This document shows, piece by piece, positions 41,358-62,245 of a stretch of 64,000 bases of DNA. This DNA is from Bacteriovoracia bacterium (GTDB lineage: Bacteria > Bdellovibrionota > UBA1018 > CAIPTA01), in assembly GCA_050246755.1 (NCBI GenBank), contig JBFWVL010000004.1, positions 32,001-96,000 on the forward strand, given 5' to 3'. Below the pieces are notes generated by a model that saw nothing but the letters and a program-made list of their open reading frames with translations, was not told the DNA's origin and did not search any database. The position numbers and the translations under genes were made by a program. Positions within the stretch are counted from its first letter, which is position 1. Every line of letters starts with the position of its first letter.

Positions 41358-41467
41358 GAAGGGCCGCCTAAGGTAATTTTTAGCGAACCGTGCTCAAAAT
41401 GTCTCACGCTGGGCCACAATGACTCGGCGATCGCTGGGGAACCGATGTTTTTCCCTGAGCAAAGGTT

Positions 41468-41483
41468 CGGCGCGAACGTTGCA
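41468..41483 (+). promoter_or_regulatory. sigma54 -24/-12 promoter of the Zn-ADH gene
   Basis: CGGCGCGAACGTTGCA (GG-N10-GC); GTCTCA half-site at 41401-41406. Confidence 0.55.
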
Positions 41484-41521
41484 ACGCTGTTTCAAAATCA
41501 TTCATTGAAGGAAACAGGCAA

Positions 41522-42583
41522 ATGCAAGATAGAAGAATGAAGGCTCTCGTCTTCGTGGCACCGGGAAAAATTGAACTCGTAAGCAAATCAGTGCCCATGC
41601 CGGGGCCAACCGATGCTCTTATCAGGATCACTACTACCACCATCTGCGGCACCGACGTGCACATCCTCAAGGGTGAGTATCCCGTGAAACCGGGACTCAC
41701 GATCGGGCATGAGCCTGTGGGCGTGATCGAAGCCCTGGGTTCGGCGGTAGCCGGTTATAAAATTGGCCAGCGCGTGATCGCCGGCGCCATTACGCCATGC
41801 GGGCAGTGCGGGCCTTGTTTGGATGGAACGCATTCCCAGTGTGGCGGAAAACCCATGGGCGGCTGGCGGTTTGGCAATACGCTGGACGGCGCCCAGGCCG
41901 AATTTCTCCTCGTTCCGAATGCCGCTGCGAACCTGGCATTGGTGCCGGATCATCTCAGCGATGAGGAAGTGCTAATGTGCCCGGATATCATGAGCACCGG
42001 TTTCAGCGGAGCCGAGAGCGGAAAAGTAAAGATAGGTGATTCGGTGGCCGTTTTTGCGCAAGGCCCGATCGGGCTCTGCGCCACCGCGGGTGCGCGGCTT
42101 TCCGGCGCCGGCATGATTTTTACGGTGGATAGCGTGGAGCGCAGGCTAACGATGTCGCGCCAGGTTGGCGCGGACGTAACGATCAATTACCAAGAGAAAG
42201 ATCCCGTGAAGACCATTATGGATTTAACGCATGGGCGCGGGGTAGACGTCGCGATCGAGGCGCTCGGCACGGAGCAAACATTCCAGAGCGGCCTGCGCGT
42301 TCTTAAGCCCGGAGGAACACTTTCTTCGCTGGGCGTTTATTCTAAAGACCTCAAGCTTCCTCTGGATGCTTTCTGCGCAGGCCTCGGCGATCATAAAGTG
42401 GTTACTACTCTCTGCCCCGGCGGAAAAGAAAGGATGCGCCGGCTAATGGAGGTGATCAGTTCTAAGCGAGTAGACCTAAAATCCATGGTCACTCATCGAT
42501 TCAAGCTTAGTCAGATCGTTGAGGCCTACGATCTATTCGCTAGTCAGCGCGAAGGGGTGCTCAAAGTGGCGATAACGCCATAG
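41522..42583 (+). CDS. Zn-dependent alcohol dehydrogenase (MDR family)
   Basis: TICGTD, GHE, CGQCGPC...C, DIMSTG, QGPIGL, LCPGGKERMRRL. Confidence 0.93.
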   Translation: MQDRRMKALVFVAPGKIELVSKSVPMPGPTDALIRITTTTICGTDVHILKGEYPVKPGLTIGHEPVGVIEALGSAVAGYKIGQRVIAGAITPCGQCGPCLDGTHSQCGGKPMGGWRFGNTLDGAQAEFLLVPNAAANLALVPDHLSDEEVLMCPDIMSTGFSGAESGKVKIGDSVAVFAQGPIGLCATAGARLSGAGMIFTVDSVERRLTMSRQVGADVTINYQEKDPVKTIMDLTHGRGVDVAIEALGTEQTFQSGLRVLKPGGTLSSLGVYSKDLKLPLDAFCAGLGDHKVVTTLCPGGKERMRRLMEVISSKRVDLKSMVTHRFKLSQIVEAYDLFASQREGVLKVAITP

Positions 42584-42594
42584 TCATTGAGCGT

Positions 42595-43341
42595 CTAGGG
42601 CGTTGGCAAAAGGTGCGGAGTGATTTTTGCTTTTTTCCCGTGCCAAGATGCGTACACCGAAATCAGCCCGGGCAAAATAAATCCCCTGTAGCCGAGCTTT
42701 AGGAAGATCCAAGCCCCAATGGCTGAACCGATAATAAACGCGATGATCGAGCCAATTCGGAGGTAGTTGGCCCGCAACTCCGCACGGAGCCGGGGCTCTT
42801 TTGCATCAAAGGCAAAAATACGCGCCAGTCCAAGCCCTAGGTCGGTGGTTAGCCCGGTCAAATGAGTGGTCCTAACCGAGCGGCCCGAGGAGGAGGTGAT
42901 CGCCGCATTCTGAAGCCCGCTTGCGAGGCAAAGCAGGCCGAGTAAAACATAATTCTCCTTGAGGCCGAGCGCATATCCAAAGGTTCCCAGCTGCAGGATC
43001 TCTCCTCCGGCGGACGCGAAGAATAAACAAAAAGCTGATAGGCCCATGACCCAATCAAAATGAGGCTGGCGGCCTTGATAAATGGGCTTATCGATGAGCA
43101 GCCCGGCGAGGAACGCTCCTAAAAGGAAAAAGAGCGGCACGGAAAGAATTCCAAATGCCGCCTGAATTTGGTGGTTCGTGATATCCACGCCGAAGAGGGT
43201 AGCGAAACCGGTAACATGACTGACGAAGCGCCCGGTGGCCAAGAATCCGCCGGCATTGATGGCCCCGCCACTAAAGCTCAGGAGGAACCAATGCATGGCT
43301 ACCGTATTGTTCGCATTTTGGTCAAAGCGATGGTTGAACAT
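42595..43341 (-). CDS. YoaK/DUF1275 membrane protein
   Basis: GAINAGGF...FVSHVTG, GLQNA, RTTHLTG..TDLG. Confidence 0.85.
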   Translation of the reverse strand: MFNHRFDQNANNTVAMHWFLLSFSGGAINAGGFLATGRFVSHVTGFATLFGVDITNHQIQAAFGILSVPLFFLLGAFLAGLLIDKPIYQGRQPHFDWVMGLSAFCLFFASAGGEILQLGTFGYALGLKENYVLLGLLCLASGLQNAAITSSSGRSVRTTHLTGLTTDLGLGLARIFAFDAKEPRLRAELRANYLRIGSIIAFIIGSAIGAWIFLKLGYRGFILPGLISVYASWHGKKAKITPHLLPTP

Positions 43342-43405
43342 AGATTCTTTTTACCACCAGATAAGGGGCGCCGTAAAATTAAACGGAATCCAGGCCCTCG
43401 ACTCC

Positions 43406-43954
43406 TTATTTTCTCATTTTCTTAAGCTGAATTAAAAAGTTTTCCAGAAATTCATCTACCTGCTTCCAGTCGGTATACTCGTAGTCTTTGCTCGTGTCGG
43501 TATCGCCGCCGGCTTTTTTGCTAATTCTCTTCATTAAGAGTCTTACCGGCCACCAATAACTACGATACTTCAGTGCTCCGGCAAAGCTTGCGCTGAGGAT
43601 GGGCCGGCAAGCGGTTTCCAGCCCAAATCGCTCGCGAAGGAGGCGATCCGCCTCTCGCGCTTGCGGCCGCTTATCCGCGGCGTTCAGGGTGACCGTGAAG
43701 AATGCGGAAGGCATTTTGTTGATATGCTGTTTATGGTTTTTTGCCCAGTTCACCACGGAGGCCGGGAATTTTCCGCGATAGACGGGAGATCCGCAAATAA
43801 CGGCATCGAATTCTTCGTCGAATCGGCCTGGGCCTCCCGAAGCATCGATTAAGCGAAAACTAAGGCCGCGCCGCCCCAATCCCTCGGCGAGATATCTAGC
43901 TATTTTTTCCGTCTGGCCATGACGGGAGGCGTACGCGACCGCAACTTGCTGCAT
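43406..43954 (-). CDS. hemG: Menaquinone-dependent protoporphyrinogen oxidase (flavodoxin fold)
   Basis: YASRHGQTEKIA, SAFFTV, FAGALKY, DTSKDYEYTDW. Confidence 0.8.
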   Translation of the reverse strand: MQQVAVAYASRHGQTEKIARYLAEGLGRRGLSFRLIDASGGPGRFDEEFDAVICGSPVYRGKFPASVVNWAKNHKQHINKMPSAFFTVTLNAADKRPQAREADRLLRERFGLETACRPILSASFAGALKYRSYWWPVRLLMKRISKKAGGDTDTSKDYEYTDWKQVDEFLENFLIQLKKMRK

Positions 43955-43962
43955 TCTATTCC

Positions 43963-44151
43963 TTAAAGCCTTTTTCGGGTTTTAAAGCCGAAGGCACGGT
44001 AAAGAGGACAGAATCCGGATAGCGCCGAGACGATCGCGATCAGCCCAACGTAGCCCCAAGGGGTCTGCGGGCCGAAGAAAACCAGGCTAAGTATCGCGAA
44101 GCCGAAAATAATTCGGAAAAAACGATCATAGCTTCCTACGTTTTTTGTCAT
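43963..44151 (-). CDS. DUF2892 small membrane protein
   Basis: KNVGSYDRFFR...GFCPLY..FG. Confidence 0.85.
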   Translation of the reverse strand: MTKNVGSYDRFFRIIFGFAILSLVFFGPQTPWGYVGLIAIVSALSGFCPLYRAFGFKTRKRL

Positions 44152-45086
44152 TTAGCCGCCCGGATTTCCATTACCGGCGTTTCCGCAGAGGCGAGCACCG
44201 AACGGATCGTGCCGCCCAAGAGCGCAGGAGTTTTCGTGGTCCGATAGCTTGCGAGCGCGATAAGGTCGTAATGCTTGCTCTTGGCGAATTTCGTGATCGC
44301 TCGGGCCGTGCTTTCAAATGTCTTTACCATTCTATAGTCGCAGCTCACGCCCATCGTTTTGGCTTCGCGGCACCACTTTTCGGCAACTTTCCTATTCTCT
44401 TCTCTTTGAAGGGCTTCGGACTCCATTACCCACGTGGCCGCCGCACCAAAATCCATCCCGGCGTAGGGAATGGCTGGATTACGGGCCACGAAGAGCAAAT
44501 GAACGGAAGCGCCGAAGTCTTTTGCGGTACCTAGAACTTTGACAAAAGCTTTATGGGAGCGTTCCGTCAAGTCGGTGGGAAACAAAATTTCTTTGATGCC
44601 GCCAGATACCTCGGCGTTCGGGCCTACTGCCAATATGGGTAGTTCCGATTGCTCGATGATCGCTTCGGCAAAGCCGCCGAGTTTAAAAGGCGACTTCGAG
44701 GCCGTAGTTTTCGTATTTACCGCGATGAATCCCGCTTTCCGCTTTTTCGCAAATTTTAGGACGTCGTTCACCAGCTCCCGACGCGAGGAATTGTCCCGTA
44801 CTTCTACTTCCGGGGTGGCGGTTTGGGTCATTTTAAGCTGACCCAAATTCTTTTTTACCGACTTAATGCCATACGCCTTTAGGTCGCGGCCAAAATCGTA
44901 ACTTACCGGCACCGGCCAGCGGAGCCCGCCGGGAGAAATTACGGAGAAGGGAAGGATGGAGGGAGATTTTCCTTTCGTCCAGTTAGTTAAAAATTTTGCC
45001 AAGGGAGCGCGTTCCGCATTCTTCCCCTCGAAGGGATCAATGGCCCAGACTACCGGCTTTTTAGAAGTTTGCGTGCGAGTGTTCAT
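44148..45086 (-). CDS. Tandem-domain universal stress protein
   Basis: ILFPTDLT, LGGFAEAIIEQSELPILAV, LLGGTIRSVL...PVM; ATG at 45086 with a GGAG RBS. Confidence 0.85.
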   Translation of the reverse strand: MNTRTQTSKKPVVWAIDPFEGKNAERAPLAKFLTNWTKGKSPSILPFSVISPGGLRWPVPVSYDFGRDLKAYGIKSVKKNLGQLKMTQTATPEVEVRDNSSRRELVNDVLKFAKKRKAGFIAVNTKTTASKSPFKLGGFAEAIIEQSELPILAVGPNAEVSGGIKEILFPTDLTERSHKAFVKVLGTAKDFGASVHLLFVARNPAIPYAGMDFGAAATWVMESEALQREENRKVAEKWCREAKTMGVSCDYRMVKTFESTARAITKFAKSKHYDLIALASYRTTKTPALLGGTIRSVLASAETPVMEIRAAK

Positions 45087-45120
45087 TTTTTCTCCCATTT
45101 CAATAATTTAACTCTTTAAG

Positions 45121-45136
45121 TGCAACCGGTATGCCA
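45121..45136 (-). promoter_or_regulatory. sigma54 promoter of the usp-DUF2892-hemG operon
   Basis: Minus strand TGGCATACCGGTTGCA; degenerate palindromes at 45184-45200 and 45205-45221. Confidence 0.7.
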
Positions 45137-45294
45137 GCCATAGCGCCGGTTATCGGTGCGTACGCAGAGAGAGAGAGAATCTTTGAGAATAAATGTCGGG
45201 CGTTTGAGTCGAATCGGCCCAAATGAAATGTATCGATATATCTTTAGCGCTCCTGGCGAAATTAAGCCGTGGCGAAGATCGCCACGAAATTTAG

Positions 45295-45993
45295 CTATGG
45301 CGTTTTTGGGAGATCGTCTGGAAACAAAGGATCACGTGATCCGTGGCAATAGGGGTATGTGGTTGTTTTTTTATGACCGTATTCCGAGGGTACCATCGTC
45401 GCGCTTAGCCTAATTCCTATAGGTAGAAAGGCCAGCAATAGAAAAGAAATGGGCAAGGCTTTGGGGAAACGTTTTCTTAGTTGTTCAAATGGCTTTCGTA
45501 GGACGCTTGTGCCGGCTTCAAGAACTGGAACTGTACCCAGCCAAAGACAAAAGAGAAGTAGGGAGCCATCCCATGGGCTACGCGTGGCTACCGCCGCCGC
45601 GATCCAGCCGTAGAGCAATCCGCAGGGAAGTATTCCGGTTCCCAGGCCGAGAAGAAAAGGGTTCCGTGCCAGCCGCGAAACTATTTTGCCTCGCAGGGTG
45701 TGCATGGCAAACGGTAAGGCAATTTTTAAAATGAAAGCAATGAACGTTAGGGCAATCAAACAGATTAGAAATAGAGGGGAGAGGAAAGTTCCGAAGAGGC
45801 CGGCGAAAAGGCCTAATGATAAGTAGGCAAAAAGGCGCCCGGCCTGATACTCGGCAGATGCGCGAAACGAGTGCCCCGCAATGAATCTGAGTGGGCCACA
45901 CATTCCTAAGCAGTGGAGGCTGCCGGTAGTGGACGCAATCAGAGCAACTCCAAAAACGCCGAGGCTAGCCAAACTAAATACCGGGGCCCACAA
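45295..45993 (-). CDS. DsbD_2/TauE-like cbb3 accessory membrane protein
   Basis: GSLHCLGMCGP, YQAGR, LPCGLLY, LGTVP. Confidence 0.85.
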   Translation of the reverse strand: MWAPVFSLASLGVFGVALIASTTGSLHCLGMCGPLRFIAGHSFRASAEYQAGRLFAYLSLGLFAGLFGTFLSPLFLICLIALTFIAFILKIALPFAMHTLRGKIVSRLARNPFLLGLGTGILPCGLLYGWIAAAVATRSPWDGSLLLFCLWLGTVPVLEAGTSVLRKPFEQLRKRFPKALPISFLLLAFLPIGIRLSATMVPSEYGHKKTTTYPYCHGSRDPLFPDDLPKTP

Positions 45994-47359
45994 TGGTGAC
46001 CTCCATTTTTCTGGCTCTATTACCGGTGAGAAGATGGATTTCTAATTTTTTAGAACCGAATTGGAGCTCGTTCGCCGGAACGCGCACAAAGAAATCTGCC
46101 CGGATCGTTCCGCCATCGGGAAGGATAATTGGGTTCAGGGGCGCGATTAGTTCGGCGCCACCCGCGTCTTTCCCCAGAAAAATGGTGATCTTTTCCGGAC
46201 CGCCGGTTTGGTTCGAGGCTTCTAAGCGAAAGTGATTGGTCGCCAGGATTCGTGAATCCACGGTTAGAATCTGATAGGGCTCCCCGCCGGCGCGGAAGAT
46301 ATTCAGATCGAGAAATTCTTTCTGGGTTATCGCCGCGGTAAGGCCGGCCAGCACGAGGAAAAGGAGCAGCGCAAAGGCCGCCACTCTTGGGCTGAAAATT
46401 TTTTTCGGCAATCCCGCCAACTCGGCCTGACTAGTATACCGGATTAGGCCGGCTGGCTTTTTTATTTTTTCCATCACCGCATCGCAGGCGTCGATGCAGG
46501 CCGTGCAGGCAATACATTCCATCTGGAGACCGCGGCGGATGTCGATGCCGGTAGGGCATACCTGCACGCAGCGGTTGCAGCTTACGCAATCGCCTTGGCC
46601 CAGCTCGCTAGTGCCGCGCCGGGGCTCTCCCCGTTTGGCATCATAGGCGACTACCATGGATTGCGGATCCAACATCACGCTCTGAAATCTTCCGTAGGGG
46701 CAGGCGATCACGCAAAATTGCTCGCGGAACCAGCCGAAATCGAAGAGCACGATCGCCGTGGTACCGAGGATCAGGAGAAAACTCGCCCAGTTTTGGAAGG
46801 GGGAAGCGGAAAGCATCTGGATAAGCTCCCGGCTCCCCACGAAATAGGCTAGGAAGCTGTGAGTAAATGCTAAGGACACAAATAAAAACGCTAGCCATTT
46901 GGCAGTTTTTTTTAGGACTTTCTCCGCCGTTAAGGGGGAATCATCCAGCTCCTTGCGGGCGCGGGGAGGGCCTTCAATCCATCGTTCGATTTTTCGGAAA
47001 AGCAGGTCGGTAAACACGGTTTGCGGGCAGGCCCATCCGCACCATAGCCGGCCCCATATTGCCGTGATCAGCCCAATAAGGAAAACAAAAGCGAGAATGA
47101 AAAAAAGCAGGAGCGGAGCGTCGTGTGCTCGGAAGTGAAGCCCAAAGAAATAAAACTCTCTCGCGGCCACGTTAAGAAAAATGAGTTGCCGCCCTCCCAC
47201 GTAAACCCACGGAAGAGCGAGGAATAGAAAAATTAAGCTAAGGTGAACCCAAGCCCGGCGACTACGGTATTTGCCATGATAGTCGGCGGGATAGAGATAA
47301 ACTCTCTTGCCGTTCTCATCCGTGGTACTTAAGCGGTCTTTGGGTAAAGTATCGTTCAC
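45974..47359 (-). CDS. ccoG: cbb3 oxidase accessory protein CcoG/FixG
   Basis: GRLWCGWACPQTVF, REQFCVIACPYGR, CVSCNRCVQVCPTGIDIR, CIACTACIDAC. Confidence 0.95.
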   Translation of the reverse strand: MNDTLPKDRLSTTDENGKRVYLYPADYHGKYRSRRAWVHLSLIFLFLALPWVYVGGRQLIFLNVAAREFYFFGLHFRAHDAPLLLFFILAFVFLIGLITAIWGRLWCGWACPQTVFTDLLFRKIERWIEGPPRARKELDDSPLTAEKVLKKTAKWLAFLFVSLAFTHSFLAYFVGSRELIQMLSASPFQNWASFLLILGTTAIVLFDFGWFREQFCVIACPYGRFQSVMLDPQSMVVAYDAKRGEPRRGTSELGQGDCVSCNRCVQVCPTGIDIRRGLQMECIACTACIDACDAVMEKIKKPAGLIRYTSQAELAGLPKKIFSPRVAAFALLLFLVLAGLTAAITQKEFLDLNIFRAGGEPYQILTVDSRILATNHFRLEASNQTGGPEKITIFLGKDAGGAELIAPLNPIILPDGGTIRADFFVRVPANELQFGSKKLEIHLLTGNRARKMEVTIVGPGI

Positions 47360-47928: not shown

Positions 47929-48103
47929 AGGTGTCTCCATTTTTTTCGAGGGGAATGCGGGCCAGCTGCTCGTAGAATGCGGCGCTGTTCCTGCGGAATA
48001 CCCAGAAGATGGCCGCAATGAACACCGCGAAGAAGATGAGCTCCCCGCAAACTACGAGATTCATGTAGGGATAATTGCGCAGAAACTCGCGAACTAGGTT
48101 CAT
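47918..48103 (-). CDS. ccoQ: cbb3 oxidase subunit CcoQ
   Basis: LIFFAVFIAAIFWVF...YEQLARIPLE between ccoNO and ccoP. Confidence 0.8.
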   Translation of the reverse strand: MNLVREFLRNYPYMNLVVCGELIFFAVFIAAIFWVFRRNSAAFYEQLARIPLEKNGDTYER

Positions 48104-53667: not shown

Positions 53668-53675
53668 GGAAGACA

Positions 53676-55049: not shown

Positions 55050-55060
55050 CTGGAGGTTTC

Positions 55061-55450: not shown

Positions 55451-55454
55451 ACTT

Positions 55455-56324: not shown

Positions 56325-56334
56325 TTACGAGGGC

Positions 56335-57783
56335 CTAGTCATTGCCATTGAGATCGCCGGCTTTGGCGAGGTCTTCTTCTTCTGGAGAGTCGGCAGGAAC
56401 CAGCCCTAACTCACGCTCTTTCCGATACAAAGTACGGCGGTTGATACCGAGAATTTGGGCGGCCTTATCTTTTCGGCCGGCTGTTTTTTCCAAAATTACT
56501 CGGATATAGCGCTCTTCAAGCTGAGCCACGGTAGGGAAGTCTTCGATCGCTCCCGAAAAAAATGTCTCCGGATTCTGGGTCTCTTGGCTGGGAAGATCTT
56601 CTTCGTCGATCAATGAATGCGTGCAGAGGACCACGGCCCGCTCTACCACGTTTTCAAGCTCTCTCACGTTTCCTTCCCATTTTAGGCCCATGAGCTTAGC
56701 CATGGCGCGTTTGCTGAAGCCTTTCACTTTTGCATTATTCACGGCAGAATATTTTTTCAAAAAATGTTCGGCCAGCAGAGGGATGTCGTCGCGGCGGCTG
56801 CGCAAGGAGGGGATCACGATGGGAATCACGCTAAGCCGGTAGTAGAGATCCTCGCGAAACCGGCCTTCGCGGATTGCGGCCTTGAGATCCTTGTGAGTGG
56901 CGGCCACGATTCTTACATCTACGGGGCGATCCACGTTCTCTCCTACTGCCCGTACTTTTCTTTCTTGAATTACCCGCAGCAATTTCGACTGGAGCAGCGG
57001 ATTCATATCTCCGATTTCATCCAAAAAAAGCGTTCCGCCTTCGGCTTCTTCGAAGAGGCCGCGTTTTCGCTGGATCGCGCCGGTAAAGGAGCCTTTGGCG
57101 TGGCCGAAAAGCTCGCTTTCCAGGAGGCTTTCCGGGATTGCCGTGCAATTGATCGCGATAAAAGGCTTATTGGCGCGCGGCCCGCTCTCATGAATCGCCC
57201 GGGCGACCATTTCTTTACCCGAGCCGCTCTCACCGGTGATCAGCACATTGGCGGTAGCATGGGAAACCCTGGCTACCAAATCGAAGATCGCCTTCATGGA
57301 GGCGCTTTTGCCGATCACCTTTCCCATCGAAAAGAATTTTTTTACTTCCTGTCGCAAGGCCGTATTGTCGCGTTGGAGCTTTCGGTGCTCGGCAGCCCGC
57401 TCTACATTCACGGCCATTTCGGCCAGTTTGAAGGGTTTTACTACGTAATGAAAGGCTCCCCGGCGCATGGCCTCAATCGCCGTTTCGATGCTGCCAAAGG
57501 CGGTAATTAAGATCACCGGAATTTCGGGGCGAAGGTTTTGCAAGCGGGCCGTAAACTCTAGGCCGTCCATTTGTGGCATTTTAATATCAGAAATAATCAG
57601 GTCGATGTCCCCGGCAGGCTGGTCGGCGCCTAATTTTCCACCGGGGCTCAAAGCCTCTAAGGCATCGGTGGCCACCGGGAAGCAGTGGGCCTCGTAGCCT
57701 TCGCTTTCCAAGAAGTCGCTAAGGAGGGAGCGCATCTCTTGCTCGTCGTCCACAATAACAACTCTTCCTTTTTGGCTGGCCAT
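56335..57783 (-). CDS. NtrC-family sigma54 response regulator (REC-AAA+-Fis HTH)
   Basis: VDDE, DIKMP, GESGSGKE, ESELFGHAKGSFTGA, LFLDEIG, FREDLYYRL, GNVRELEN, AAQILGINRRTLYRK. Confidence 0.95.
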   Translation of the reverse strand: MASQKGRVVIVDDEQEMRSLLSDFLESEGYEAHCFPVATDALEALSPGGKLGADQPAGDIDLIISDIKMPQMDGLEFTARLQNLRPEIPVILITAFGSIETAIEAMRRGAFHYVVKPFKLAEMAVNVERAAEHRKLQRDNTALRQEVKKFFSMGKVIGKSASMKAIFDLVARVSHATANVLITGESGSGKEMVARAIHESGPRANKPFIAINCTAIPESLLESELFGHAKGSFTGAIQRKRGLFEEAEGGTLFLDEIGDMNPLLQSKLLRVIQERKVRAVGENVDRPVDVRIVAATHKDLKAAIREGRFREDLYYRLSVIPIVIPSLRSRRDDIPLLAEHFLKKYSAVNNAKVKGFSKRAMAKLMGLKWEGNVRELENVVERAVVLCTHSLIDEEDLPSQETQNPETFFSGAIEDFPTVAQLEERYIRVILEKTAGRKDKAAQILGINRRTLYRKERELGLVPADSPEEEDLAKAGDLNGND

Positions 57784-57820: not shown

Positions 57821-57837
57821 TGAGACAGGATGTCTCA
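57821..57837. promoter_or_regulatory. Palindromic site TGAGAC-AGGAT-GTCTCA between regulator and kinase genes
   Basis: Half-sites identical to the motif at 52790-52806. Confidence 0.7.
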
Positions 57838-57873: not shown

Positions 57874-57889
57874 AGCAGGGCCTATGCCA
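57874..57889 (-). promoter_or_regulatory. sigma54 promoter of the NtrC-family regulator
   Basis: Minus strand TGGCATAGGCCCTGCT; a divergent variant TGGCTCGATTTTTGTA at 57908-57923 faces the kinase. Confidence 0.6.
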
Positions 57890-57936
57890 AGAGCCAGGTA
57901 GACGTTTTGGCTCGATTTTTGTAGCTTCGAGGGCAG

Positions 57937-59145
57937 ATGCCAAACAGATTCAATGTAGATGATGCCTTCAAGGCCGCCCACCCCGATGCGATGCGGGAAC
58001 TCGCGCTGGTGCGCCATGCGTTAGACCTGAGCGCGATCGTGGCGATTACCGATCGTACCGGCAAGATCATCCACGTAAACGATAAGTTTTGTGAAATTTC
58101 CAAATATGGTCGTGAAGAGCTGATCGGAAAGAATCATCGGATCATTAACTCAGGATATCACGGACGCGATTTTTTTGAGCAAATGTGGAAGAGCATCGCC
58201 ACTGGCCACGTGTGGGAAGGGGAGATCAGAAACCGCGCTAAAGATGGATCTTTTTACTGGGTGAATACCACGATCGTGCCGTTTCTCGGGGAAGACGGAA
58301 AGCCGTACGAGTACGTGTCTATCCGCTACGATATCACGCAGAAGAAACAGGCCGAAGAACAGCTACGGATTTACGCTGATGAGCTAGAGCGTAAAAATAC
58401 CGAGCTCGCTAAATCGGTACAAACCGTGGTCGACCGGGAGTCACAAATATTGATGCAGGATCGCTTGGCTTCGGTAGGTTTGCTGGCCTCGAGCTTGGCT
58501 CACGAAATCGGCACTCCGCTCGGAGTAATCCGCGGCAGAGCCGAGTATTTGGAAATAAAAATGAAAGATAATCCGGAGGCCCTCAAGACCGCCGGAGTAA
58601 TTATTTCCCAGATTGATCGCGTATCAAAGCTCATTCGCTCACTGCTCAATTTGGCCCGCGGCGATAATACGAAGAACGTTCATGCCGTTAAGCCAAAAGA
58701 AATACTGCTCGAGCTCAATGAGCTGATGGCGCATGAGTTTCGAAAGGCCGGAGTCGAATTGGAGTTAGCGCTCACCGAGGAGCAAAAGGTGCTGGCGGAA
58801 ATCGGCCCGCTCCACCAGGTTTTCATGAATCTCCTGGTGAATTCGCAGCATGCCATCGAGACCGCCAAGAGCCTTGGCAGAGATCAGGGACATTTTATTA
58901 GAATTAGCGCCGCGGAAGCAGGAAAATTCTGGGCCATTACATTATCCGATTCTGGTTGCGGGATTTCGGCGGAAAATCAGAAAAAATTATTTCAGCCTTT
59001 TTTCACTACTAAGGATATCGGCAAAGGGACTGGCCTAGGCTTGGCCACGACGTACCGGATTATTGAATCCTGGGGCGGAAAGGTGGAAGTGCAAAGCAGG
59101 GAGGGATCGGGGACGGATTTTATCTTGCTGCTCCCGAAAGCCTAG
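57937..59145 (+). CDS. Soluble PAS-domain histidine kinase
   Basis: PAS (IGKNHRIINSGYH...MW...WEGEIRNRAKDGSFYWV), H-box LAHEIGTPL, N, G1, F and G2 boxes; no TM helix. Confidence 0.93.
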   Translation: MPNRFNVDDAFKAAHPDAMRELALVRHALDLSAIVAITDRTGKIIHVNDKFCEISKYGREELIGKNHRIINSGYHGRDFFEQMWKSIATGHVWEGEIRNRAKDGSFYWVNTTIVPFLGEDGKPYEYVSIRYDITQKKQAEEQLRIYADELERKNTELAKSVQTVVDRESQILMQDRLASVGLLASSLAHEIGTPLGVIRGRAEYLEIKMKDNPEALKTAGVIISQIDRVSKLIRSLLNLARGDNTKNVHAVKPKEILLELNELMAHEFRKAGVELELALTEEQKVLAEIGPLHQVFMNLLVNSQHAIETAKSLGRDQGHFIRISAAEAGKFWAITLSDSGCGISAENQKKLFQPFFTTKDIGKGTGLGLATTYRIIESWGGKVEVQSREGSGTDFILLLPKA

Positions 59146-59501
59146 CTCGCGCGGTCAAAGTATGTTTTTGCCATTGCCGCTATTTGCCCGTCACTAGGAT
59201 GGTCAACCGTTTCCAAGCCCACAATTTTTTTCGCTATGGCCGGATAGTGCTCTACCAGGAATGTCTGGAAATGATGCTTGGCCATGCTCGGGCCCACGAT
59301 AAGCACGCGATCGGAAGCAGAGAGCTCATCTTTGGCTTCGGCGAAAAGCGACTTTTCTTCCCGCTCGTGGTCTAGGTTATCGCGGCGGTGACTATGATGT
59401 TCCTTATGGCCGCCGCGAATTCGTTTACGCTCCATATTTTCCTCCGAAAAGTGGAAGATGCGTGCGTGCTCTCTGTCGATCCAGATAACGGAGACTTTCA
59501 T
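59142..59501 (-). CDS. eRF1 domain-2-like ('translational machinery') protein
   Basis: VIWIDREHARIF, VLIVGPSMAK, IVGLETVDHPSDGQI. Confidence 0.75.
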   Translation of the reverse strand: MKVSVIWIDREHARIFHFSEENMERKRIRGGHKEHHSHRRDNLDHEREEKSLFAEAKDELSASDRVLIVGPSMAKHHFQTFLVEHYPAIAKKIVGLETVDHPSDGQIAAMAKTYFDRAS

Positions 59502-59935
59502 TAGCGTGACTCCTGGCGTTCTGGCGGGTGGGCTTTGCGTTTCGTGTCGTTCAGGATATCGCCGAGCGCGCGCAGGCCATCCGTGGCGGTGAAAATACCG
59601 ATTACCTTCTGATTAGCGTCCTGCACTACGGCGCAGCCGAGTTTCCTGATCGCCATTGTTTCCACCACGTCGCCGATGGGGGCGTCCGGAGAAACAGTGT
59701 AGGGGTCGGGGGTCATGGCGTCGTCGACCATTAGCTGGTTCGTAGGATCGAATGATTCCGCTAGACTCAGGTCCCGATCGGTAATTACTCCCACGAGGTG
59801 GCCCGAAAACTGGACGGGCAAATGCCTAACGCCGTACGTTTTCATCATCGCCTTCGCTTTTTTAATCGGCAACCCGGAATTGACCGTATGGGCCGTCGCC
59901 GTCATATATTGTTTCACGCAGATTTTTTTTCGCAT
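59501..59935 (-). CDS. CBS-pair protein (AcuB-like)
   Basis: VRHLPV..HLVGVITDRD, MTPDPYTV, GIFTATD; ATG 59935 with a GAGG RBS. Confidence 0.9.
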   Translation of the reverse strand: MRKKICVKQYMTATAHTVNSGLPIKKAKAMMKTYGVRHLPVQFSGHLVGVITDRDLSLAESFDPTNQLMVDDAMTPDPYTVSPDAPIGDVVETMAIRKLGCAVVQDANQKVIGIFTATDGLRALGDILNDTKRKAHPPERQESR

Positions 59936-59973: not shown

Positions 59974-59989
59974 CGCAGAAAACGGGCCA
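59974..59989 (-). promoter_or_regulatory. sigma54 promoter
   Basis: Minus strand TGGCCCGTTTTCTGCG. Confidence 0.6.
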
Positions 59990-60126
59990 AGTTGCGGCGC
60001 CGCCAGCTGGCTGATAATGCATCTCCGCCGGGATGGCGCCGAGCGCGTGGGATACTTCGTCTCAATTTTGGAAATTTTCGTCCCGTGGTCCAGCTAGGAT
60101 TTTTGGATTTAGGGGAAGGACGAGAA

Positions 60127-60142
60127 TGGCACGCCCATTGCT
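60127..60142 (+). promoter_or_regulatory. sigma54 promoter
   Basis: TGGCACGCCCATTGCT (full consensus); shared site TGGGAT-N5-GTCTCA at 60048-60064. Confidence 0.75.
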
Positions 60143-60193
60143 CCTGCTTACCATATAAACCAGAAGCCGAATCTCCGTGTCCCGGGAGTTATT

Positions 60194-61018
60194 ATGAAAA
60201 TGAGTAAGCTGCTACCAAGCTCTCCAGTCTGCTCGGTGCGGGCGGATTTGCCGATCGGCCAGTGCATTGCTTTGCTCAGAGATAAAGCCCTGGGCGCCCT
60301 TATAGTAGTTAGCGACAATTCCCGGGAAGAGATCGTGGGAATTTTCACGGAACGAGACCTGGTTAAAAATATTGAATTGATTCGCCGAGGCGCGTTTTGG
60401 GACACTCCGGTAAGAACCGTGATGACCGCAGCCGTTCATACTATTTCCCTGGATGACCTCCATCGGGCTCCGGAAATCATGGCTAAGCATCATATTCGTC
60501 ATCTTCCCGTGACTACGGTGGAGAAGGGGAAAACGAGGATCGTAGGCATCCTCTCCATGCGGGACCTTTTCCGGATTGTGATGGAGGAGCTGAAATACGA
60601 TCTACGGAAACTTTTTCTTCCAGGAGCACCGGCCCAGAAGAAAAAAAGTATTGTGGGTGTATTTTCCTCTGATCCGGCCGTCATTAAAGTAGTAGATGCG
60701 GCTTCAAAAACAACCTCTCGCTGCCTCGCAAGGGCGGCGCAATTCAAGGGCGGAGCGGCCGGATTGCAGAGTTACTTTGATTCTTTTCGCGCCCTACTAA
60801 TCGACCTCGATGGAATGAGCTCAGCGGATCTGACGGAATTGCTTTCGGACTGCAGGAGCTATACTGCCAGCCAGATTTTTTTAGTTTTCAACCCCGCCAC
60901 CTCGAGCAAATTACTTCGGGAGCGCTTGCACAAGCTTAGCGTGGGCGGGCATGTGAGTCTCATTGCTAAGCCGATTGCCCTTGGCCTTTTATACGAAAAA
61001 TTTTTGAAAAAGCTTTGA
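60194..61018 (+). CDS. CBS-pair protein with C-terminal receiver-like domain
   Basis: GIFTERDL, IRHLPV, GILSMRDL; C-terminal ALLIDLD...LIAKPI. Confidence 0.8.
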   Translation: MKMSKLLPSSPVCSVRADLPIGQCIALLRDKALGALIVVSDNSREEIVGIFTERDLVKNIELIRRGAFWDTPVRTVMTAAVHTISLDDLHRAPEIMAKHHIRHLPVTTVEKGKTRIVGILSMRDLFRIVMEELKYDLRKLFLPGAPAQKKKSIVGVFSSDPAVIKVVDAASKTTSRCLARAAQFKGGAAGLQSYFDSFRALLIDLDGMSSADLTELLSDCRSYTASQIFLVFNPATSSKLLRERLHKLSVGGHVSLIAKPIALGLLYEKFLKKL

Positions 61019-61078
61019 GTGAGCTTCGAGACGAAATGGCTCAGCTGGCCTGGAAACTGAATAGTCGAGGATAAATAT

Positions 61079-61525
61079 ATGCAGCCGCATCACGGAATCA
61101 AAATAGGGATGAGCGAGTTCGGCCATTGGCTTAAGCGTCTTTTTTCCCAGCCTCTTTTTCTTTTCGTAACCATTTGGGGGCATCTCGCAATCTTCATCGG
61201 CGCAGCAATGTTTCGCCATTTCGAAAATGGACTCCATCCCAATAGCATCTCCTTATTCGATGCGTACTACTGGGCTATTTCTACGGCCACTACCGTCGGA
61301 ACGGCGAATATGGCGCCGGTTTCATTGGGCGGAAAGATAGTGGCGATTGGGGTGATGATCACGGGCTCACTATTTCTTTGGTCTTATACGGCGCTATTCG
61401 CCGCTAGCGTCGTCTTGCCTTCTTTTAGGGAGATAGAGCGCGACATTCGTCTCGACACGGCCACCATACAAAAACTTCTGAAAGAGCTCGAAAAGATGAA
61501 TGCTTCCAGCGGACCACGGAAGTGA
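61079..61525 (+). CDS. Two-TM potassium-channel-like protein (Ion_trans_2)
   Basis: DAYYWAISTATTVGTANMAPVSLGGK pore region; start could be 61109. Confidence 0.75.
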   Translation: MQPHHGIKIGMSEFGHWLKRLFSQPLFLFVTIWGHLAIFIGAAMFRHFENGLHPNSISLFDAYYWAISTATTVGTANMAPVSLGGKIVAIGVMITGSLFLWSYTALFAASVVLPSFREIERDIRLDTATIQKLLKELEKMNASSGPRK

Positions 61526-62145
61526 ACGCTTTTAATCCTATGAAGCAGAAAATTGGCCACAAAGTTGTGCTTACGGGCGGACCATGCGCGGGTAAAACCA
61601 CGATGGTGCGCTTGATCGAGCAGGCCTACCCCGCCAGTGTGGTCGGGATACCTGAAGCGGCCTCCCTACTTTTTGGTGGAGGGTTCCCCCGTTTTCCGGC
61701 AGTTGAGGCCAAGCGAGCCATGCAGCGGGCGATTTTTTTTGTGCAGCACGAACTCGAGGCCGCCTACGCTGCGGAGCATCCGGAACGGACGCTGCTTCTG
61801 GATCGCGGTACGATTGATGGAGCTGCTTATTGGCCGGAGGGGCCGGAAGATTTCTTCCATGTGCTAGGAACCTCTTTTGAAGAGGAGCTAGCGCGTTATG
61901 ATAAAGTAATTTATCTATCGAGCGCCGCGGAGTCTGACTATCTCTTGCATAAGGAGAGAAATCCTAATCGCCGAGAAAGCTGGGAAGAGGCCCAAAGCCT
62001 GGATTCGCGGACATTGGAGCTCTGGCGCCGGCACCCAAACTTCACCTTAATTGCGAATAACCGCTCTTTTCAGCGGAAGGTGATGGAAGTGCTCGGCGTT
62101 TTTGCAGGAAGTCTTTCTTTTGAGGATAGCGACGGGAAGAAATAG
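61522..62145 (+). CDS. AAA_28 (NadR/TTD14-like) P-loop NTPase
   Basis: VLTGGPCAGKTT, PEAA, LLDRGTIDG. Confidence 0.8.
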   Translation: MNAFNPMKQKIGHKVVLTGGPCAGKTTMVRLIEQAYPASVVGIPEAASLLFGGGFPRFPAVEAKRAMQRAIFFVQHELEAAYAAEHPERTLLLDRGTIDGAAYWPEGPEDFFHVLGTSFEEELARYDKVIYLSSAAESDYLLHKERNPNRRESWEEAQSLDSRTLELWRRHPNFTLIANNRSFQRKVMEVLGVFAGSLSFEDSDGKK

Positions 62146-62229
62146 CTCATCCTTGCCTCAGCTTGTCTCACGGGAAATTCCAGGCCTTCCTAAAATACTC
62201 GAGAATGCAGTGCTCACGATAAAAGGTAG

Positions 62230-62245
62230 TGGCATGCCCGTTGCT
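62230..62245 (+). promoter_or_regulatory. sigma54 promoter
   Basis: TGGCATGCCCGTTGCT; site TGCCTC-N5-GTCTCA at 62154-62170. Confidence 0.75.

What the first reader, a model, noticed from the sequence alone, without database searches (positions are those of the whole stretch)
41390..62245. sigma54 low-oxygen regulon with its own enhancer motif TGAGAC-N5-GTCTCA and a soluble PAS kinase/NtrC pair
Seen: most transcription units in this island start with a GG-N10-GC sigma54 motif (41468+, 45121-, 52706-, 52845+, 57874-, 59974-, 60127+, 62230+; variants at 53375+, 57908+, 61046+). A palindrome TGAGAC-N5-GTCTCA is perfect at 52790 and 57821 and degenerate at 41390, 45184, 45205, 52759, 60048, 61027 and 62154. 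Distances counted from the site edge to the -24 GG are 63, 70, 70, 71, 72, 60, 64 and 61 bp: two classes about one helical turn apart. One perfect site lies between the divergent NtrC-family activator and kinase genes. Known: enhancer-binding proteins bind palindromes upstream of sigma54 promoters; cbb3 oxidase, HemG, USP and CBS proteins are typical hypoxia genes, usually under FNR/FixK or DosR; Myxococcus NmpR is a sigma54 analogue. Inference: this two-component pair senses redox and drives a DosR-like hypoxia regulon without FNR, and autoregulates.
Basis: partly seen in the sequence, partly recalled or inferred. Interest (0 to 1): 0.85.

Follow-up and report, generated by a model that had tools for sequence, protein, structure and literature searches.

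The report
Sigma-54 low-oxygen regulon in Bdellovibrionota
A cluster of respiration and stress genes in a Bdellovibrio-like bacterium appears to be switched on together by one local activator protein that recognises a 17-base palindrome, a layout much like the oxygen-limitation system recently described in Myxococcus but built from different parts.

Summary
TGAGAC-N5-GTCTCA is perfect only twice in the 3.55 Mb genome, and both copies lie in this island. With a matrix trained only on other genomes, 6 of the 8 best intergenic hits fall in the island. GTCTCA is the most enriched 6-mer upstream of the eight canonical sigma-54 motifs. Site plus promoter recur before orthologous genes (CBS, USP, ccoI-cbb3, ADH, a secreted protein) in rearranged neighbourhoods of 11 relatives, and never before 53 internal or control genes. 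The local NtrC-family activator has orthologues in 27 of 40 relatives. It carries the palindrome in its own 5' leader, downstream of its promoter, in 8 of 12 genomes. The kinase's PAS domain closely matches the FAD-binding redox sensor MmoS. No CRP/FNR regulator was found. The closest known system is Myxococcus NmpRSTU (PMC11841059), which has a similar regulon. It differs in motif (GCGCA-N5-TGCGC) and sensor (haem), and the activator is apparently not orthologous. Verdict: a real, conserved system and a new variant of a known kind. Binding, transcription starts and the signal remain untested.

The parts
41390..41426 (.). Two weak palindrome-like sites (41390-41406 with 5 mismatches; 41410-41426 with PWM 12.4), upstream of the ADH promoter.
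   Evidence: The ADH orthologue in G030 has a better site (PWM 15.4) 63 bp from a sigma-54 motif.
41468..41483 (+). Sigma-54-like promoter CGGCGCGAACGTTGCA for the Zn alcohol dehydrogenase gene (41522-42583).
   Evidence: Pfam.
42595..45098 (-). USP gene (44148-45098; the likely start is the second ATG, 45086), HemG-like flavodoxin (43406-43954) and DUF1275 (42595-43341). Possibly one transcription unit.
   Evidence: Pfam. HemG model reached 117.5 bits, below its 142-bit cut-off. HemG-like and DUF1275 have no site or promoter of their own.
45121..45136 (-). Sigma-54 promoter TGGCATACCGGTTGCA for USP.
45205..45221 (.). Enhancer site TGAGTCGAATCGGCCCA (PWM 16.1), centred at about -103 of the USP promoter.
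   Evidence: USP orthologues have a site plus promoter in 5 of 7 genomes.
45295..52693 (-). ccoI (P-type ATPase), fused ccoNO, ccoP, ccoG and a DsbD_2 gene: cbb3 oxidase and its assembly genes, read as one operon.
   Evidence: Pfam. Internal genes have no site or promoter of their own.
52706..52721 (-). Sigma-54 promoter GGGCACGGGTTCTGCA for ccoI. The predicted transcription start leaves a leader of only about 2 nt.
52759..52806 (.). Tandem enhancer sites 52759-52775 (2 mismatches) and 52790-52806 (perfect), separated by a 14 bp gap. They are shared symmetrically by the divergent ccoI promoter (centres -72 and -103) and CBS1 promoter (centres -104 and -73).
   Evidence: The same 31 bp pair occurs before ccoI in G031.
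52845..52860 (+). Weaker sigma-54-like promoter TGGTCCCGTTTTTGCG for CBS-pair protein 1 (52884-53372).
   Evidence: CBS1 orthologues are flagged in 3 of 6 genomes.
53375..55450 (+). GG-N10-GA variant (53375-53390), an 82-aa ORF, a beta-CASP metallo-hydrolase (53676-55049) and a 129-aa unknown. Membership of the regulon is uncertain.
   Evidence: The variant is conserved in G002 (TGGCATGGGTTTTGAA), but no site lies nearby. Pfam.
55455..57783 (-). NtrC-family activator (56335-57783: REC, sigma-54 AAA+ domain with a GSFTGA loop, HTH_8), followed by a DUF4010 membrane protein (55455-56324).
   Evidence: Pfam. Orthologues in 27 of 40 relatives. Forms its own clade. Recognition helix is conserved.
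57821..57837 (.). Perfect palindrome TGAGACAGGATGTCTCA. It is centred at about +34 of the activator's own promoter (in its 5' leader) and at about -105 of the kinase promoter.
   Evidence: The position is conserved downstream of the activator promoter in 8 of 12 genomes.
57874..57889 (-). Sigma-54 promoter TGGCATAGGCCCTGCT reading into the activator gene.
57908..57923 (+). Conserved non-canonical sigma-54-like motif TGGCTCGATTTTTGTA (-12 GT), 14 nt before the kinase ATG. The mRNA would be nearly leaderless.
   Evidence: By my reading, a GG-N10-GT motif lies 14-15 nt before the kinase ATG in 7 of the 8 loci that have a divergent PAS kinase, G000's own L001 among them..
57937..59145 (+). Soluble histidine kinase. 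An FAD-type PAS domain is fused to the kinase core that in relatives belongs to a separate REC-hybrid kinase.
59142..59935 (-). CBS-pair protein 2 (59501-59935) and a 119-aa protein with weak pelota/eRF1-like similarity (59142-59501). This is the most conserved operon of the regulon.
   Evidence: A site plus promoter precede CBS2 in 8 of 10 genomes.
59974..59989 (-). Sigma-54 promoter TGGCCCGTTTTCTGCG for CBS2.
60048..60064 (.). Enhancer site TGGGATACTTCGTCTCA, shared by the divergent CBS2 promoter (-93) and CBS3 promoter (-97).
60127..60142 (+). Sigma-54 promoter TGGCACGCCCATTGCT for CBS protein 3 (60194-61018).
   Evidence: CBS3 is flagged in 3 of 3 genomes.
61027..61043 (.). Strong orphan site CGAGACGAAATGGCTCA between CBS3 and the K+ channel gene. 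It has no promoter at enhancer distance, and its role is unknown.
   Evidence: Not conserved before the channel gene in relatives.
62154..62245 (+). Weak site 62154-62170 (3 mismatches) and sigma-54 promoter TGGCATGCCCGTTGCT (62230-62245).
   Evidence: Orthologous promoters have better sites in 4 of 5 relatives.
62289..64000 (+). A secreted 132-aa unknown protein and an M4 (thermolysin-like) peptidase that runs off the end of the window. The two genes are adjacent in all four relatives with an M4 hit (G002, G004, G006, G007).

Best explanation
This is a sigma-54 regulon for oxygen or redox limitation, conserved in part of the phylum Bdellovibrionota.

Proposed mechanism:
- The local NtrC-family response regulator (56335-57783) binds as dimers to the 17-bp palindrome TGAGAC-N5-GTCTCA (consensus across genomes TGAGACAAATTGTCTCA). 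Sites are centred about 73 to 105 bp upstream of the predicted starts.
- From there it assembles into the ATPase ring and opens sigma-54 promoters by DNA looping.
- Its targets are the ccoI-cbb3 oxidase operon, a USP gene (possibly with the HemG-like gene), three CBS-pair genes, a Zn alcohol dehydrogenase and a secreted-protein/M4-peptidase pair.
- Two intergenic regions each use shared sites for two divergent promoters.
- The regulator is phosphorylated by the adjacent soluble kinase. That kinase's flavin-type PAS domain reads the cell's redox state rather than binding O2 through haem.
- In this genome the kinase is a chimera. It joins the PAS sensor of one kinase directly to the core of a REC-hybrid kinase; in close relatives these are two separate proteins forming a relay.
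- The pair regulates itself. One perfect site lies at about -105 of the kinase promoter and inside the 5' leader of the activator transcript.

What is shown: the motif statistics, the conservation, the domain content and the gene content. What is inferred: binding by this protein, the transcription starts, the signal and the sign of autoregulation.
For: Specificity of the motif:
- Only 2 perfect palindromes exist in 3.55 Mb, both in the island, where 0.20 are expected.
- A PWM trained only on sites from other genomes puts 6 of the 8 best intergenic hits in the island, which holds 0.58% of intergenic DNA (p 1e-12).
- GTCTCA/TGAGAC is the top 6-mer in the -35 to -135 windows of the 8 canonical promoters (5 observed, 0.12 expected, p 1.6e-7).

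Link to sigma-54:
- 5 of 7 island candidates against 5 of 224 elsewhere carry a site with 3 mismatches or fewer.
- Spacing shows helical phasing (R 0.47 at 10.5 bp, nominal p 0.0014, 30 pairs that are not independent).
- The genome has one rpoN and 23 activators.

Conservation in the 11 neighbourhoods fetched, out of 27 genomes with an orthologue:
- The genes are rearranged, yet site plus promoter precede CBS2 in 8 of 10 genomes, CBS3 in 3 of 3, the secreted unknown in 4 of 6, USP in 5 of 7, ccoI in 3 of 7, CBS1 in 3 of 6 and ADH in 2 of 3.
- None of 53 rows for internal or other genes is flagged.

Which regulator:
- The site beside the activator gene is conserved in 8 of 12 genomes.
- The recognition helix G-I-N-R-R-T-L-Y-R-K-E-R-E is nearly invariant in the clade.

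Sensor:
- The PAS domain matches 3EWK (E 4e-55), Aer and NifL. Passages of PMC9668731 identify 3EWK as the FAD-binding MmoS PAS.

Pathway:
- The chimera links the PAS sensor to the hybrid-kinase core.

Low-oxygen role:
- The gene content parallels the tested NmpR regulon (sections of PMC11841059).
- CBS2 homologues in a sister family carry TTGAT-N4-ATCAA boxes next to CRP/FNR genes.
- No CRP/FNR HTH was found in this genome.
Against: - There is no experimental datum for this lineage. The search for sequencing runs listed none of the RNA kind.
- The closest paralogue (C3:80185-81732, 50% identical) has a similar recognition helix and a half-matching site before its own promoter. Cross-binding is therefore possible.
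- The site at the activator's own promoter is downstream, about +34, a position poorly suited to activation.
- The 61027 site has no partner promoter.
- The ADH and 62154 sites in this genome are weak.
- ccoI is flagged in only 3 of 7 genomes.
- Five genomes of family f5 keep an activator orthologue (70-73% identical), yet no site or sigma-54 motif was seen beside it or before the CBS2 homologues. The 3 of 7 near-perfect palindromes checked in one of them lie inside ORFs.
- USP and CBS genes are general stress genes, so the signal could be energy stress rather than oxygen.
- Gene calls in my scripts were crude (longest ORFs).
- The sigma-54 score uses a consensus I recalled, not a trained model.
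Confidence: 0.7

Rival explanations
1. The palindrome is a real enhancer for these sigma-54 promoters, but a different protein binds it. The most plausible candidate is the paralogous activator at C3:80185-81732. Another of the 23 activators is also possible, with the local regulator controlling something else.
For: The paralogue's recognition helix (S-R-R-T-L-Y-R-K) is close to that of the island clade. A half-matching site (TGAGACATTTTGCCCAA) lies 70 bp before a sigma-54-like motif upstream of the paralogue. The tree places it as sister to the island clade.
Against: The sites travel with the island activator gene through rearranged neighbourhoods. A site is conserved in that gene's own leader in 8 of 12 genomes. 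The only perfect sites in the genome lie within 5 kb of it.
Confidence: 0.1
2. The regulon and its regulator are as described, but the signal is not oxygen or redox limitation. It could be general energy or nutrient stress, a stage of the predatory cycle, or copper supply.
For: USP and CBS-pair proteins are generic nucleotide-sensing stress proteins. MmoS, the best PAS match, belongs to a copper-dependent switch (reference titles quoted in PMC9668731). The regulon also includes a secreted M4-like peptidase pair and an alcohol dehydrogenase.
Against: The largest target is the high-affinity cbb3 oxidase with its assembly genes. The same gene set is induced by hypoxia through NmpR in Myxococcus (PMC11841059). 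Homologous CBS genes carry FNR-type boxes in a sister family. FAD-type PAS domains of Aer and NifL report redox state (PMC9668731).
Confidence: 0.15
3. The activator is a true, diverged orthologue of Myxococcus NmpR, so the system is simply the NmpR family with a changed recognition sequence.
For: The regulon content is similar: a CBS-led operon, USP, and a P-type ATPase with cbb3. Both systems have tandem sites with a 14 bp gap. Relatives have a REC-HisKA-HATPase hybrid kinase with the domain order reported for NmpS (PMC11841059 abstract). In distant Bdellovibrionota the activator follows the CBS and 119-aa genes in one operon.
Against: In the tree, three Myxococcota activators that sit beside protoglobin kinases and carry GCGCA-N5-TGCGC arrays do not group with the island clade. 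The island clade's nearest kin are Bdellovibrionota paralogues, although the deep nodes are weak. Identity is 42-44%, no higher than to unrelated paralogues. No protoglobin was found in this genome. The M. xanthus NmpR sequence itself was not available to me.
Confidence: 0.15
4. The palindromes are chance matches or remnants of a repeated or mobile element, with no regulatory role.
For: Within the window, the count at 3 mismatches or fewer equals the shuffle expectation. Totals at 1 mismatch or fewer in 41 genomes are similar to a reversed-pattern control.
Against: See: placement, quality, co-occurrence with sigma-54 motifs, and conservation before orthologous genes in other genomes. The 15 of 15 background hits checked in other genomes lie inside long ORFs with no sigma-54 motif nearby. 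The island sites do not look like that.
Confidence: 0.02

Closest known systems
Myxococcus xanthus NmpRSTU oxygen-utilisation regulon (PMC11841059: abstract and sections 6, 13, 16, 22 read; PMC6211767: passages read)
   Same: - An NtrC-like response regulator with sigma-54 promoters.
- An inverted repeat with a 5-nt spacer, and tandem sites 14-15 bp apart. Here the gap is 14 bp at 52759/52790.
- Overlapping targets: CBS-domain genes, a USP, and a P-type ATPase leading the cbb3 genes.
- An oxygen-independent haem-synthesis enzyme (HemN there). Here a HemG-like gene lies downstream of USP, and its membership is uncertain.
- The regulator and its kinases are themselves targets.
- In relatives of this genome, a sensor kinase plus a REC-hybrid kinase lie upstream of the regulator.
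   Different: - The recognition sequence is TGAGAC-N5-GTCTCA, not GCGCA-N5-TGCGC, and the recognition helix differs.
- The sensor is an FAD-type PAS domain, not a haem protoglobin. No protoglobin was found in this genome.
- No NmpT-like double-receiver protein was seen.
- In this genome the relay is collapsed into one chimeric kinase.
- The activator does not group with NmpR-like proteins in the tree.
- The autoregulatory site lies downstream of the activator's promoter.
FNR/FixK (and FixLJ) control of cbb3 oxidase and low-oxygen genes
   Same: The same physiological targets: the ccoNOP, ccoG and ccoI genes, and USP-type genes. In a sister family of this class, the CBS2 homologue carries a TTGAT-N4-ATCAA box next to CRP/FNR-family genes.
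   Different: No CRP/FNR-family HTH was found in this genome or in G002. There is no FNR box in the island's intergenic regions. The promoters are of the sigma-54 type and would need an ATPase activator.
Mycobacterial DosRST dormancy regulon (recalled, not searched)
   Same: A hypoxia or redox two-component system that induces USP-rich stress genes.
   Different: DosR is a NarL-type regulator acting at sigma-70-type promoters, and its kinases sense through haem-GAF domains. No homology is implied.
MmoS, NifL and Aer FAD-binding PAS redox sensors (PDB 3EWK, 2GJ3, 8DIK)
   Same: The kinase PAS domain (residues 34-143) aligns with 3EWK PAS-A at E 4e-55. It shares the HR(I)(I/V)NSGYHG, NR.KDG and SIR.DIT stretches. 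Weaker matches were found to Aer and NifL.
   Different: The output is a HisKA/HATPase core feeding a sigma-54 activator for respiration genes. That differs from methane monooxygenase, nitrogenase or aerotaxis control. Flavin binding has not been tested here.

Membership tests
NtrC-family bacterial enhancer-binding protein | Receiver domain, sigma-54 interaction AAA+ domain and Fis-type HTH in one protein. | tested here: met
   Pfam Response_reg 5.5e-27, Sigma54_activat 4.4e-72, AAA_lid_14, HTH_8 5e-11. No NCBIfam equivalog cut-off is reached; the best is AtoC at 489 bits against a 714-bit cut-off.
NtrC-family bacterial enhancer-binding protein | GAFTGA loop that contacts sigma-54, and a sigma-54 gene in the genome. 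| tested here: met
   The loop reads GSFTGA in the translated sequence (the motif name is recalled). One rpoN match at 6.7e-64.
Sigma-54 promoter | GG-N10-GC with a TGGCAC-N5-TTGC-like context, at a short distance before a gene. | tested here: met
   Eight motifs. The enrichment is 5 observed against 0.69 expected. The consensus used for scoring is recalled.
Sigma-54 promoter | Transcription start about 12 nt past the -12 C, with dependence on rpoN. | not testable with these tools
   No RNA run was listed.
NmpR regulon (Myxococcus) | The regulator binds GCGCA-N5-TGCGC. | tested here: not met
   Island sites are TGAGAC-N5-GTCTCA. GCGCA-N5-TGCGC arrays occur beside the Myxococcota protoglobin-linked activators instead.
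NmpR regulon (Myxococcus) | The activator is orthologous to NmpR. | tested here: inconclusive
   The quick ML tree does not join the island clade with three NmpR-like Myxococcota proteins, but the deep nodes have weak support. The M. xanthus NmpR sequence was not at hand.
NmpR regulon (Myxococcus) | Haem protoglobin sensor kinase NmpU. | tested here: not met
   PF11563 gave 0 matches in this genome, which is 95.7% complete.
NmpR regulon (Myxococcus) | A REC-HisKA-HATPase hybrid kinase (NmpS type) between the sensor and the regulator. | tested here: inconclusive
   Present in G002, G004, G024 and G030. In this genome only its kinase core survives, fused to the PAS sensor. Homology to NmpS itself was not tested.
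NmpR regulon (Myxococcus) | Targets include a CBS gene, a USP, and a P-type ATPase with cbb3. | tested here: met
   compared with section 22 of PMC11841059.
FNR/FixK regulon | A CRP/FNR-family regulator, with TTGAT-N4-ATCAA boxes before the target genes. | tested here: not met
   PF13545 and PF00325 gave 0 matches. Two window matches with 1 mismatch, neither of them in an island intergenic region.
FAD-binding PAS redox sensor (MmoS/NifL/Aer type) | Sequence membership and a conserved flavin pocket. | tested here: inconclusive
   Strong sequence match. The His, Asn and Arg named in PMC9668731 appear to lie in identical stretches of the alignment, but I did not map the residue numbers. Cofactor binding was not tested.

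The most novel reading that the evidence does not exclude
In part of the Bdellovibrionota, control of high-affinity respiration and hypoxia stress genes has been handed from FNR/FixK to a lineage-specific sigma-54 activator that arose by duplication within the phylum. It converged on the Myxococcus NmpR design (the same kinds of target genes, tandem N5 palindromes and a sign-inverting kinase relay), but with a flavin sensor.

In this genome the relay has been short-circuited by an in-register fusion of the sensor PAS domain to the hybrid kinase core. The circuit also uses unusual promoter arrangements: an enhancer inside the activator's own leader, a conserved -12 GT sigma-54 promoter, and nearly leaderless sigma-54 transcripts for the kinase and ccoI.
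Probability: 0.35. Interest if true: 0.7.

Novelty: new variant of a known kind. Interest (0 to 1): 0.55.

Why it matters
Bdellovibrio-like bacteria are aerobic, and many are predators that must cope with low oxygen in biofilms, sediments and prey. My library searches found no paper on how they regulate respiration at low oxygen.

This locus gives a complete, testable circuit: sensor, regulator, binding site, promoters and targets. The binding site is sharply defined, so the regulon could be predicted across the phylum.

It also offers three points of wider interest:
- An apparently independent counterpart of the NmpR system described in 2025.
- A natural example of a multi-kinase relay collapsed into one chimeric kinase.
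- Within one class, the same gene under an FNR-type box in one family and under a sigma-54 enhancer in another.

Tried and rejected
- **RNA evidence:** The look-up of sequencing runs listed no RNA holder for 52300-60300, so no transcription starts could be mapped.
- **Earlier notes of this scan:** none fitted this place.
- **Regulon members elsewhere in the genome:** no convincing ones were found.
  - The high-scoring hit C1:161528 lies inside cysS.
  - C5:21506 lies before an OsmC gene with only weak sigma-54 motifs.
  - C3:20324/20476 are divergent sigma-54 motifs beside an AcrB-type pump, sharing only a 3-mismatch site.
- **Whole-genome palindrome counts in 41 genomes:** totals at 1 mismatch or fewer did not exceed a reversed-pattern control overall. 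The apparent excess in G012 and G021 (9 against 1) was followed up. All 15 of the 15 loci checked across G012, G016, G021, G029 and G032 lie in long ORFs with no sigma-54 motif nearby.
- **Phylogenetic profile with the 119-aa protein:** it was found in 16 of 41 genomes. The test was not clean, because the low-identity hits look like paralogues.
- **Best Myxococcota hits of the search for related loci:** these are an unrelated activator type, orthologous to the own-genome paralogue C1:1034534. They were not used as NmpR stand-ins.
- **My first sigma-54 threshold** was far too low and the output was useless. It was redone.
- **No structure or complex prediction** was run. None would have changed the verdict.

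Full report
**What is in the sequence**

The window is G000:C4:32001-96000 of a 3.55 Mb, 54.6% G+C genome in 10 contigs. Named relatives of the local activator carry the labels Bdellovibrio sp. and Oligoflexia bacterium.

- a Zn alcohol dehydrogenase;
- DUF1275;
- a HemG-like flavodoxin (the NCBIfam HemG model reaches 117.5 bits, below its 142-bit cut-off);
- a USP;
- ccoI, fused ccoNO, ccoP, ccoG and a DsbD_2 gene;
- three CBS-pair proteins;
- a beta-CASP hydrolase;
- an NtrC-family activator (REC, Sigma54_activat 4.4e-72, HTH_8);
- a soluble PAS-HisKA-HATPase kinase;
- a K+ channel;
- an AAA_28 protein;
- a secreted unknown protein followed by an M4-like peptidase.

The genome has one rpoN and 23 sigma-54 activators.

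**Checking the observation**

All eleven GG-N10-G(C/T/A) motifs and all nine palindrome-like sites are at the stated coordinates.

The raw number of loose matches is not the signal. In the window, 15 matches with 3 mismatches or fewer are found where 14.9 are expected. Totals at 1 mismatch or fewer across 41 genomes resemble a reversed-pattern control.

The signal lies in quality and placement:
- The only two perfect palindromes in the genome (0.20 expected) lie 5 kb apart in the island.
- Of 33 hits with 2 mismatches or fewer, 8 are intergenic, and 5 of those 8 are in the island.
- I trained a weight matrix only on sites from other genomes and then scanned this genome. The two best hits are the island's perfect sites. 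Six of the eight intergenic hits scoring 13.8 or more lie in the island, which holds 0.58% of the intergenic DNA.
- An unbiased k-mer count in the -35 to -135 windows of the eight canonical promoters ranks GTCTCA/TGAGAC first (5 observed, 0.12 expected, p 1.6e-7).
- Sigma-54-like motifs in an upstream context are themselves about seven-fold enriched in the island (5 against 0.69).
- Co-occurrence is specific: 5 of 7 island candidates carry a site with 3 mismatches or fewer at -40 to -130, against 5 of 224 elsewhere (Fisher p 1e-6).

Individually, 41390 (5 mismatches) and 45184 (4 mismatches) are no better than chance, and 62154 is weak.

**Anatomy (transcription starts are predicted, not measured)**

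- *ccoI and CBS1.* These divergent promoters share two sites separated by a 14 bp gap. The sites are centred at -72 and -103 for ccoI, and at -104 and -73 for CBS1, which is a mirror-symmetric layout.
- *CBS2 and CBS3.* These divergent promoters share one site, at -93 and -97.
- *USP.* One site at -103.
- *ADH.* Two weak sites at -76 and -96.
- *The secreted unknown.* One weak site at -94.
- *Phasing.* Across 30 promoter-site pairs from all genomes, the spacing is phased with the helix (R 0.47 at 10.5 bp, nominal p 0.0014). The pairs are not independent.
- *The activator and kinase region.* The perfect site at 57821 is upstream (-105) only of the kinase motif TGGCTCGATTTTTGTA, whose -12 reads GT. 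Relative to the canonical promoter 57889-57874, which reads into the activator gene, the site lies downstream at about +34.
- *The orphan site.* 61027 is strong (PWM 19.3) but abuts the 61046 variant, and no promoter lies at enhancer distance from it.
- *Short leaders.* The predicted leaders are very short for ccoI (about 2 nt) and for the kinase (about 3 nt).

**Conservation**

The activator has clear orthologues (64-85% identical; the next-best hits are 55% or less) in 27 of 40 relatives sampled from the class. In a quick ML tree, the island protein and 16 orthologues form one clade (SH-aLRT 99). Their nearest kin are two paralogue lineages of the same phylum.

I fetched up to 40 kb around the orthologue in 11 of those 27 genomes; four of the stretches were shorter because the contig ended. 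The same genes recur there, but in rearranged order.

A sigma-54 motif with a site 30-130 bp upstream precedes:
- CBS2 in 8 of 10 genomes;
- CBS3 in 3 of 3;
- the secreted unknown in 4 of 6;
- USP in 5 of 7;
- ccoI in 3 of 7;
- CBS1 in 3 of 6;
- ADH in 2 of 3.

None of 53 rows for internal-operon or other genes (ccoNO, the DsbD_2 gene, beta-CASP, the 119-aa gene, AAA_28, M4 and others) is flagged. G005 adds a further CBS2-type promoter with two sites 21 bp apart.

At the activator gene, the order is always promoter, then site, then start codon. This holds in 8 of 12 genomes, including two (G006, G017) that have no divergent kinase. By my reading, the kinase's GG-N10-GT motif lies 14-15 nt before the ATG in 7 of the 8 loci that have a divergent PAS kinase, G000's own among them.

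**The regulator and the sensor**

The HTH recognition helix (GINRRTLYRKERE) is nearly invariant across the clade.

The kinase PAS domain (residues 34-143) matches PDB 3EWK at E 4e-55, with weaker matches to Aer and NifL. Passages of PMC9668731 identify 3EWK as the FAD-binding PAS domain of Methylococcus MmoS, and describe Aer, MmoS and NifL as flavin redox sensors.

G002, G004, G024 and G030 have two kinases: the PAS kinase next to the activator, and a REC-HisKA-HATPase hybrid. In this genome, and in G007, a single protein carries both parts:
- the PAS part is 73-78% identical to the first kinase;
- the core is 59-69% identical to the hybrid, and only 25-29% identical to the first kinase's own core.

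No other close copy of either kinase exists in this genome. This fusion is Rosetta-stone evidence that the sensor, the hybrid kinase and the activator form one pathway. It also means the relay is short-circuited here.

**Low-oxygen role**

No CRP/FNR-family HTH was found in this genome with two Pfam models (completeness 95.7%) or in G002. No FNR box lies in the island's intergenic DNA.

In five genomes of a sister family, the CBS2 homologues are preceded by TTGAT-N4-ATCAA boxes and lie next to CRP/FNR-family genes. One type of these genes has an N-terminal cysteine cluster. The same gene therefore appears under an FNR-type box in one family and under the sigma-54 enhancer in another.

**Comparison with what is known**

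The closest system is Myxococcus xanthus NmpRSTU (PMC11841059, abstract and four sections read; PMC6211767, passages). NmpR is an NtrC-like regulator that binds GCGCA-N5-TGCGC, usually as two sites 14-15 bp apart. It activates sigma-54 promoters of:
- a CBS-led operon that contains nmpR;
- a USP;
- a P-type ATPase with the cbb3 genes;
- hemN with a hemerythrin;
- its own kinases.

Its sensing runs through a haem protoglobin kinase (NmpU) and a REC-hybrid kinase (NmpS).

The design and the targets match. The parts differ:
- The motif and the recognition helix are different.
- No protoglobin was found here.
- Three Myxococcota activators sit beside protoglobin kinases and a fused ccoNO cluster, and carry GCGCA-N5-TGCGC arrays. 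They do not group with the island clade, although the deep nodes of the tree are weak.

I could not obtain the M. xanthus NmpR sequence, so orthology is unresolved. It is not supported by what I could test.

My searches of the held library for Bdellovibrio with sigma-54, cbb3/hypoxia, or RpoN/NtrC, and for the motif itself, returned nothing relevant in the listings.

**Open points**

- The sign of autoregulation is unknown. A site at +34 is better placed for a roadblock, or for the kinase promoter, than for activating the promoter above it.
- The role of the 61027 site is unknown.
- It is not known whether the -12 GT and GA variants fire.
- The paralogue C3:80185-81732 has a similar helix and a half-matching site.
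- It is not known what the activator orthologue does in the family that uses FNR-type boxes. No sites were seen there.

**Limits of method**

- Gene calls in the scripts were longest-ORF calls.
- The sigma-54 score rests on a recalled consensus.
- The matrix is circular for the relatives it was trained on, though not for this genome. The mismatch counts do not depend on it.

**Verdict**

This is a real, conserved regulatory system. It is best described as a flavin-sensed, sigma-54-dependent low-oxygen regulon of Bdellovibrionota that works like the NmpR regulon without being shown to belong to it. It is a new variant of a known kind and of moderate interest.

Noticed in passing
57937-59145; relatives in L031-L039 (G002, G004, G024, G030) and L048 (G007): The single kinase of this genome and of G007 is a chimera of two kinases that are separate in G002, G004, G024 and G030. 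The junction is at the same place in the linker helix in both, just after the ...NTEL / ...NREL stretch. G000 shares its genus with G002 and G004, which keep two kinases, so the fusion is either polymorphic or recurrent.
   Followed up: partly
L177-L183 (G013, G016, G020, G023, G025): In a sister family, some CBS2 homologues are preceded by TTGAT-N4-ATCAA boxes and lie beside CRP/FNR-family genes. One type of these genes has an N-terminal C-x2-C-x8-C cluster. These genomes also keep an orthologue of the sigma-54 activator, with no palindrome seen near it.
   Followed up: partly
L139-L141 (three Myxococcota genomes, G041, G042, G044): A protoglobin histidine kinase, an NtrC-like activator with arrays of GCGCA-N5-TGCGC before it, and a fused ccoNO-ccoP-ccoG-ccoI cluster (ccoNO 60-62% identical to the window's) lie side by side. 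In L139 two further sites lie 30 bp apart before ccoNO.
   Followed up: partly
52693-52721 and 57908-57937: The predicted sigma-54 transcripts for ccoI and the kinase would have leaders of only 2-3 nt, with no Shine-Dalgarno sequence. The 14-15 nt distance from the -12 position to the ATG is conserved for the kinase in relatives.
   Followed up: partly
53375-53390; G002 in L033/L034: TGGCATGGGAATTGAA (-12 GA), directly after the CBS1 stop codon, is conserved in G002 as TGGCATGGGTTTTGAA. It precedes an 82-aa ORF and the beta-CASP gene. No enhancer site lies nearby.
   Followed up: no
L012:1544-1560 (G016): A perfect TGAGAC-N5-GTCTCA lies inside the coding region of the activator orthologue, about 43 nt into the match, where it encodes M-R-Q-L-V-S of the receiver domain. 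It could be chance, or a downstream site that has moved into the gene.
   Followed up: no
G000:C3:80052-80153 (L132): The closest paralogous activator (50% identical), preceded by a stand-alone receiver gene, has TGAGACATTTTGCCCAA 70 bp before a sigma-54-like motif. This suggests a related half-site specificity.
   Followed up: partly
G000:C3:20309-20491 (L134): Divergent strong sigma-54-like motifs (TGGCACGTCCATTGCT and TGGCATAGTGACCGCA) lie between an unknown 304-aa gene and an AcrB-type transporter. They share only a 3-mismatch palindrome match.
   Followed up: no
12400-12415 (- strand) and 31101-31116 (- strand): High-scoring sigma-54-like motifs outside the island: TGGCATGGCTGTTGCT, which is intergenic, and TGGCCCCGGGCTTGCA. 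Neither was examined.
   Followed up: no
59142-59501: The conserved 119-aa partner of CBS2 has weak similarity to the central domain of pelota/eRF1 (NCBIfam TIGR00111, E 8.6e-6, far below its cut-off). No Pfam family matched.
   Followed up: no
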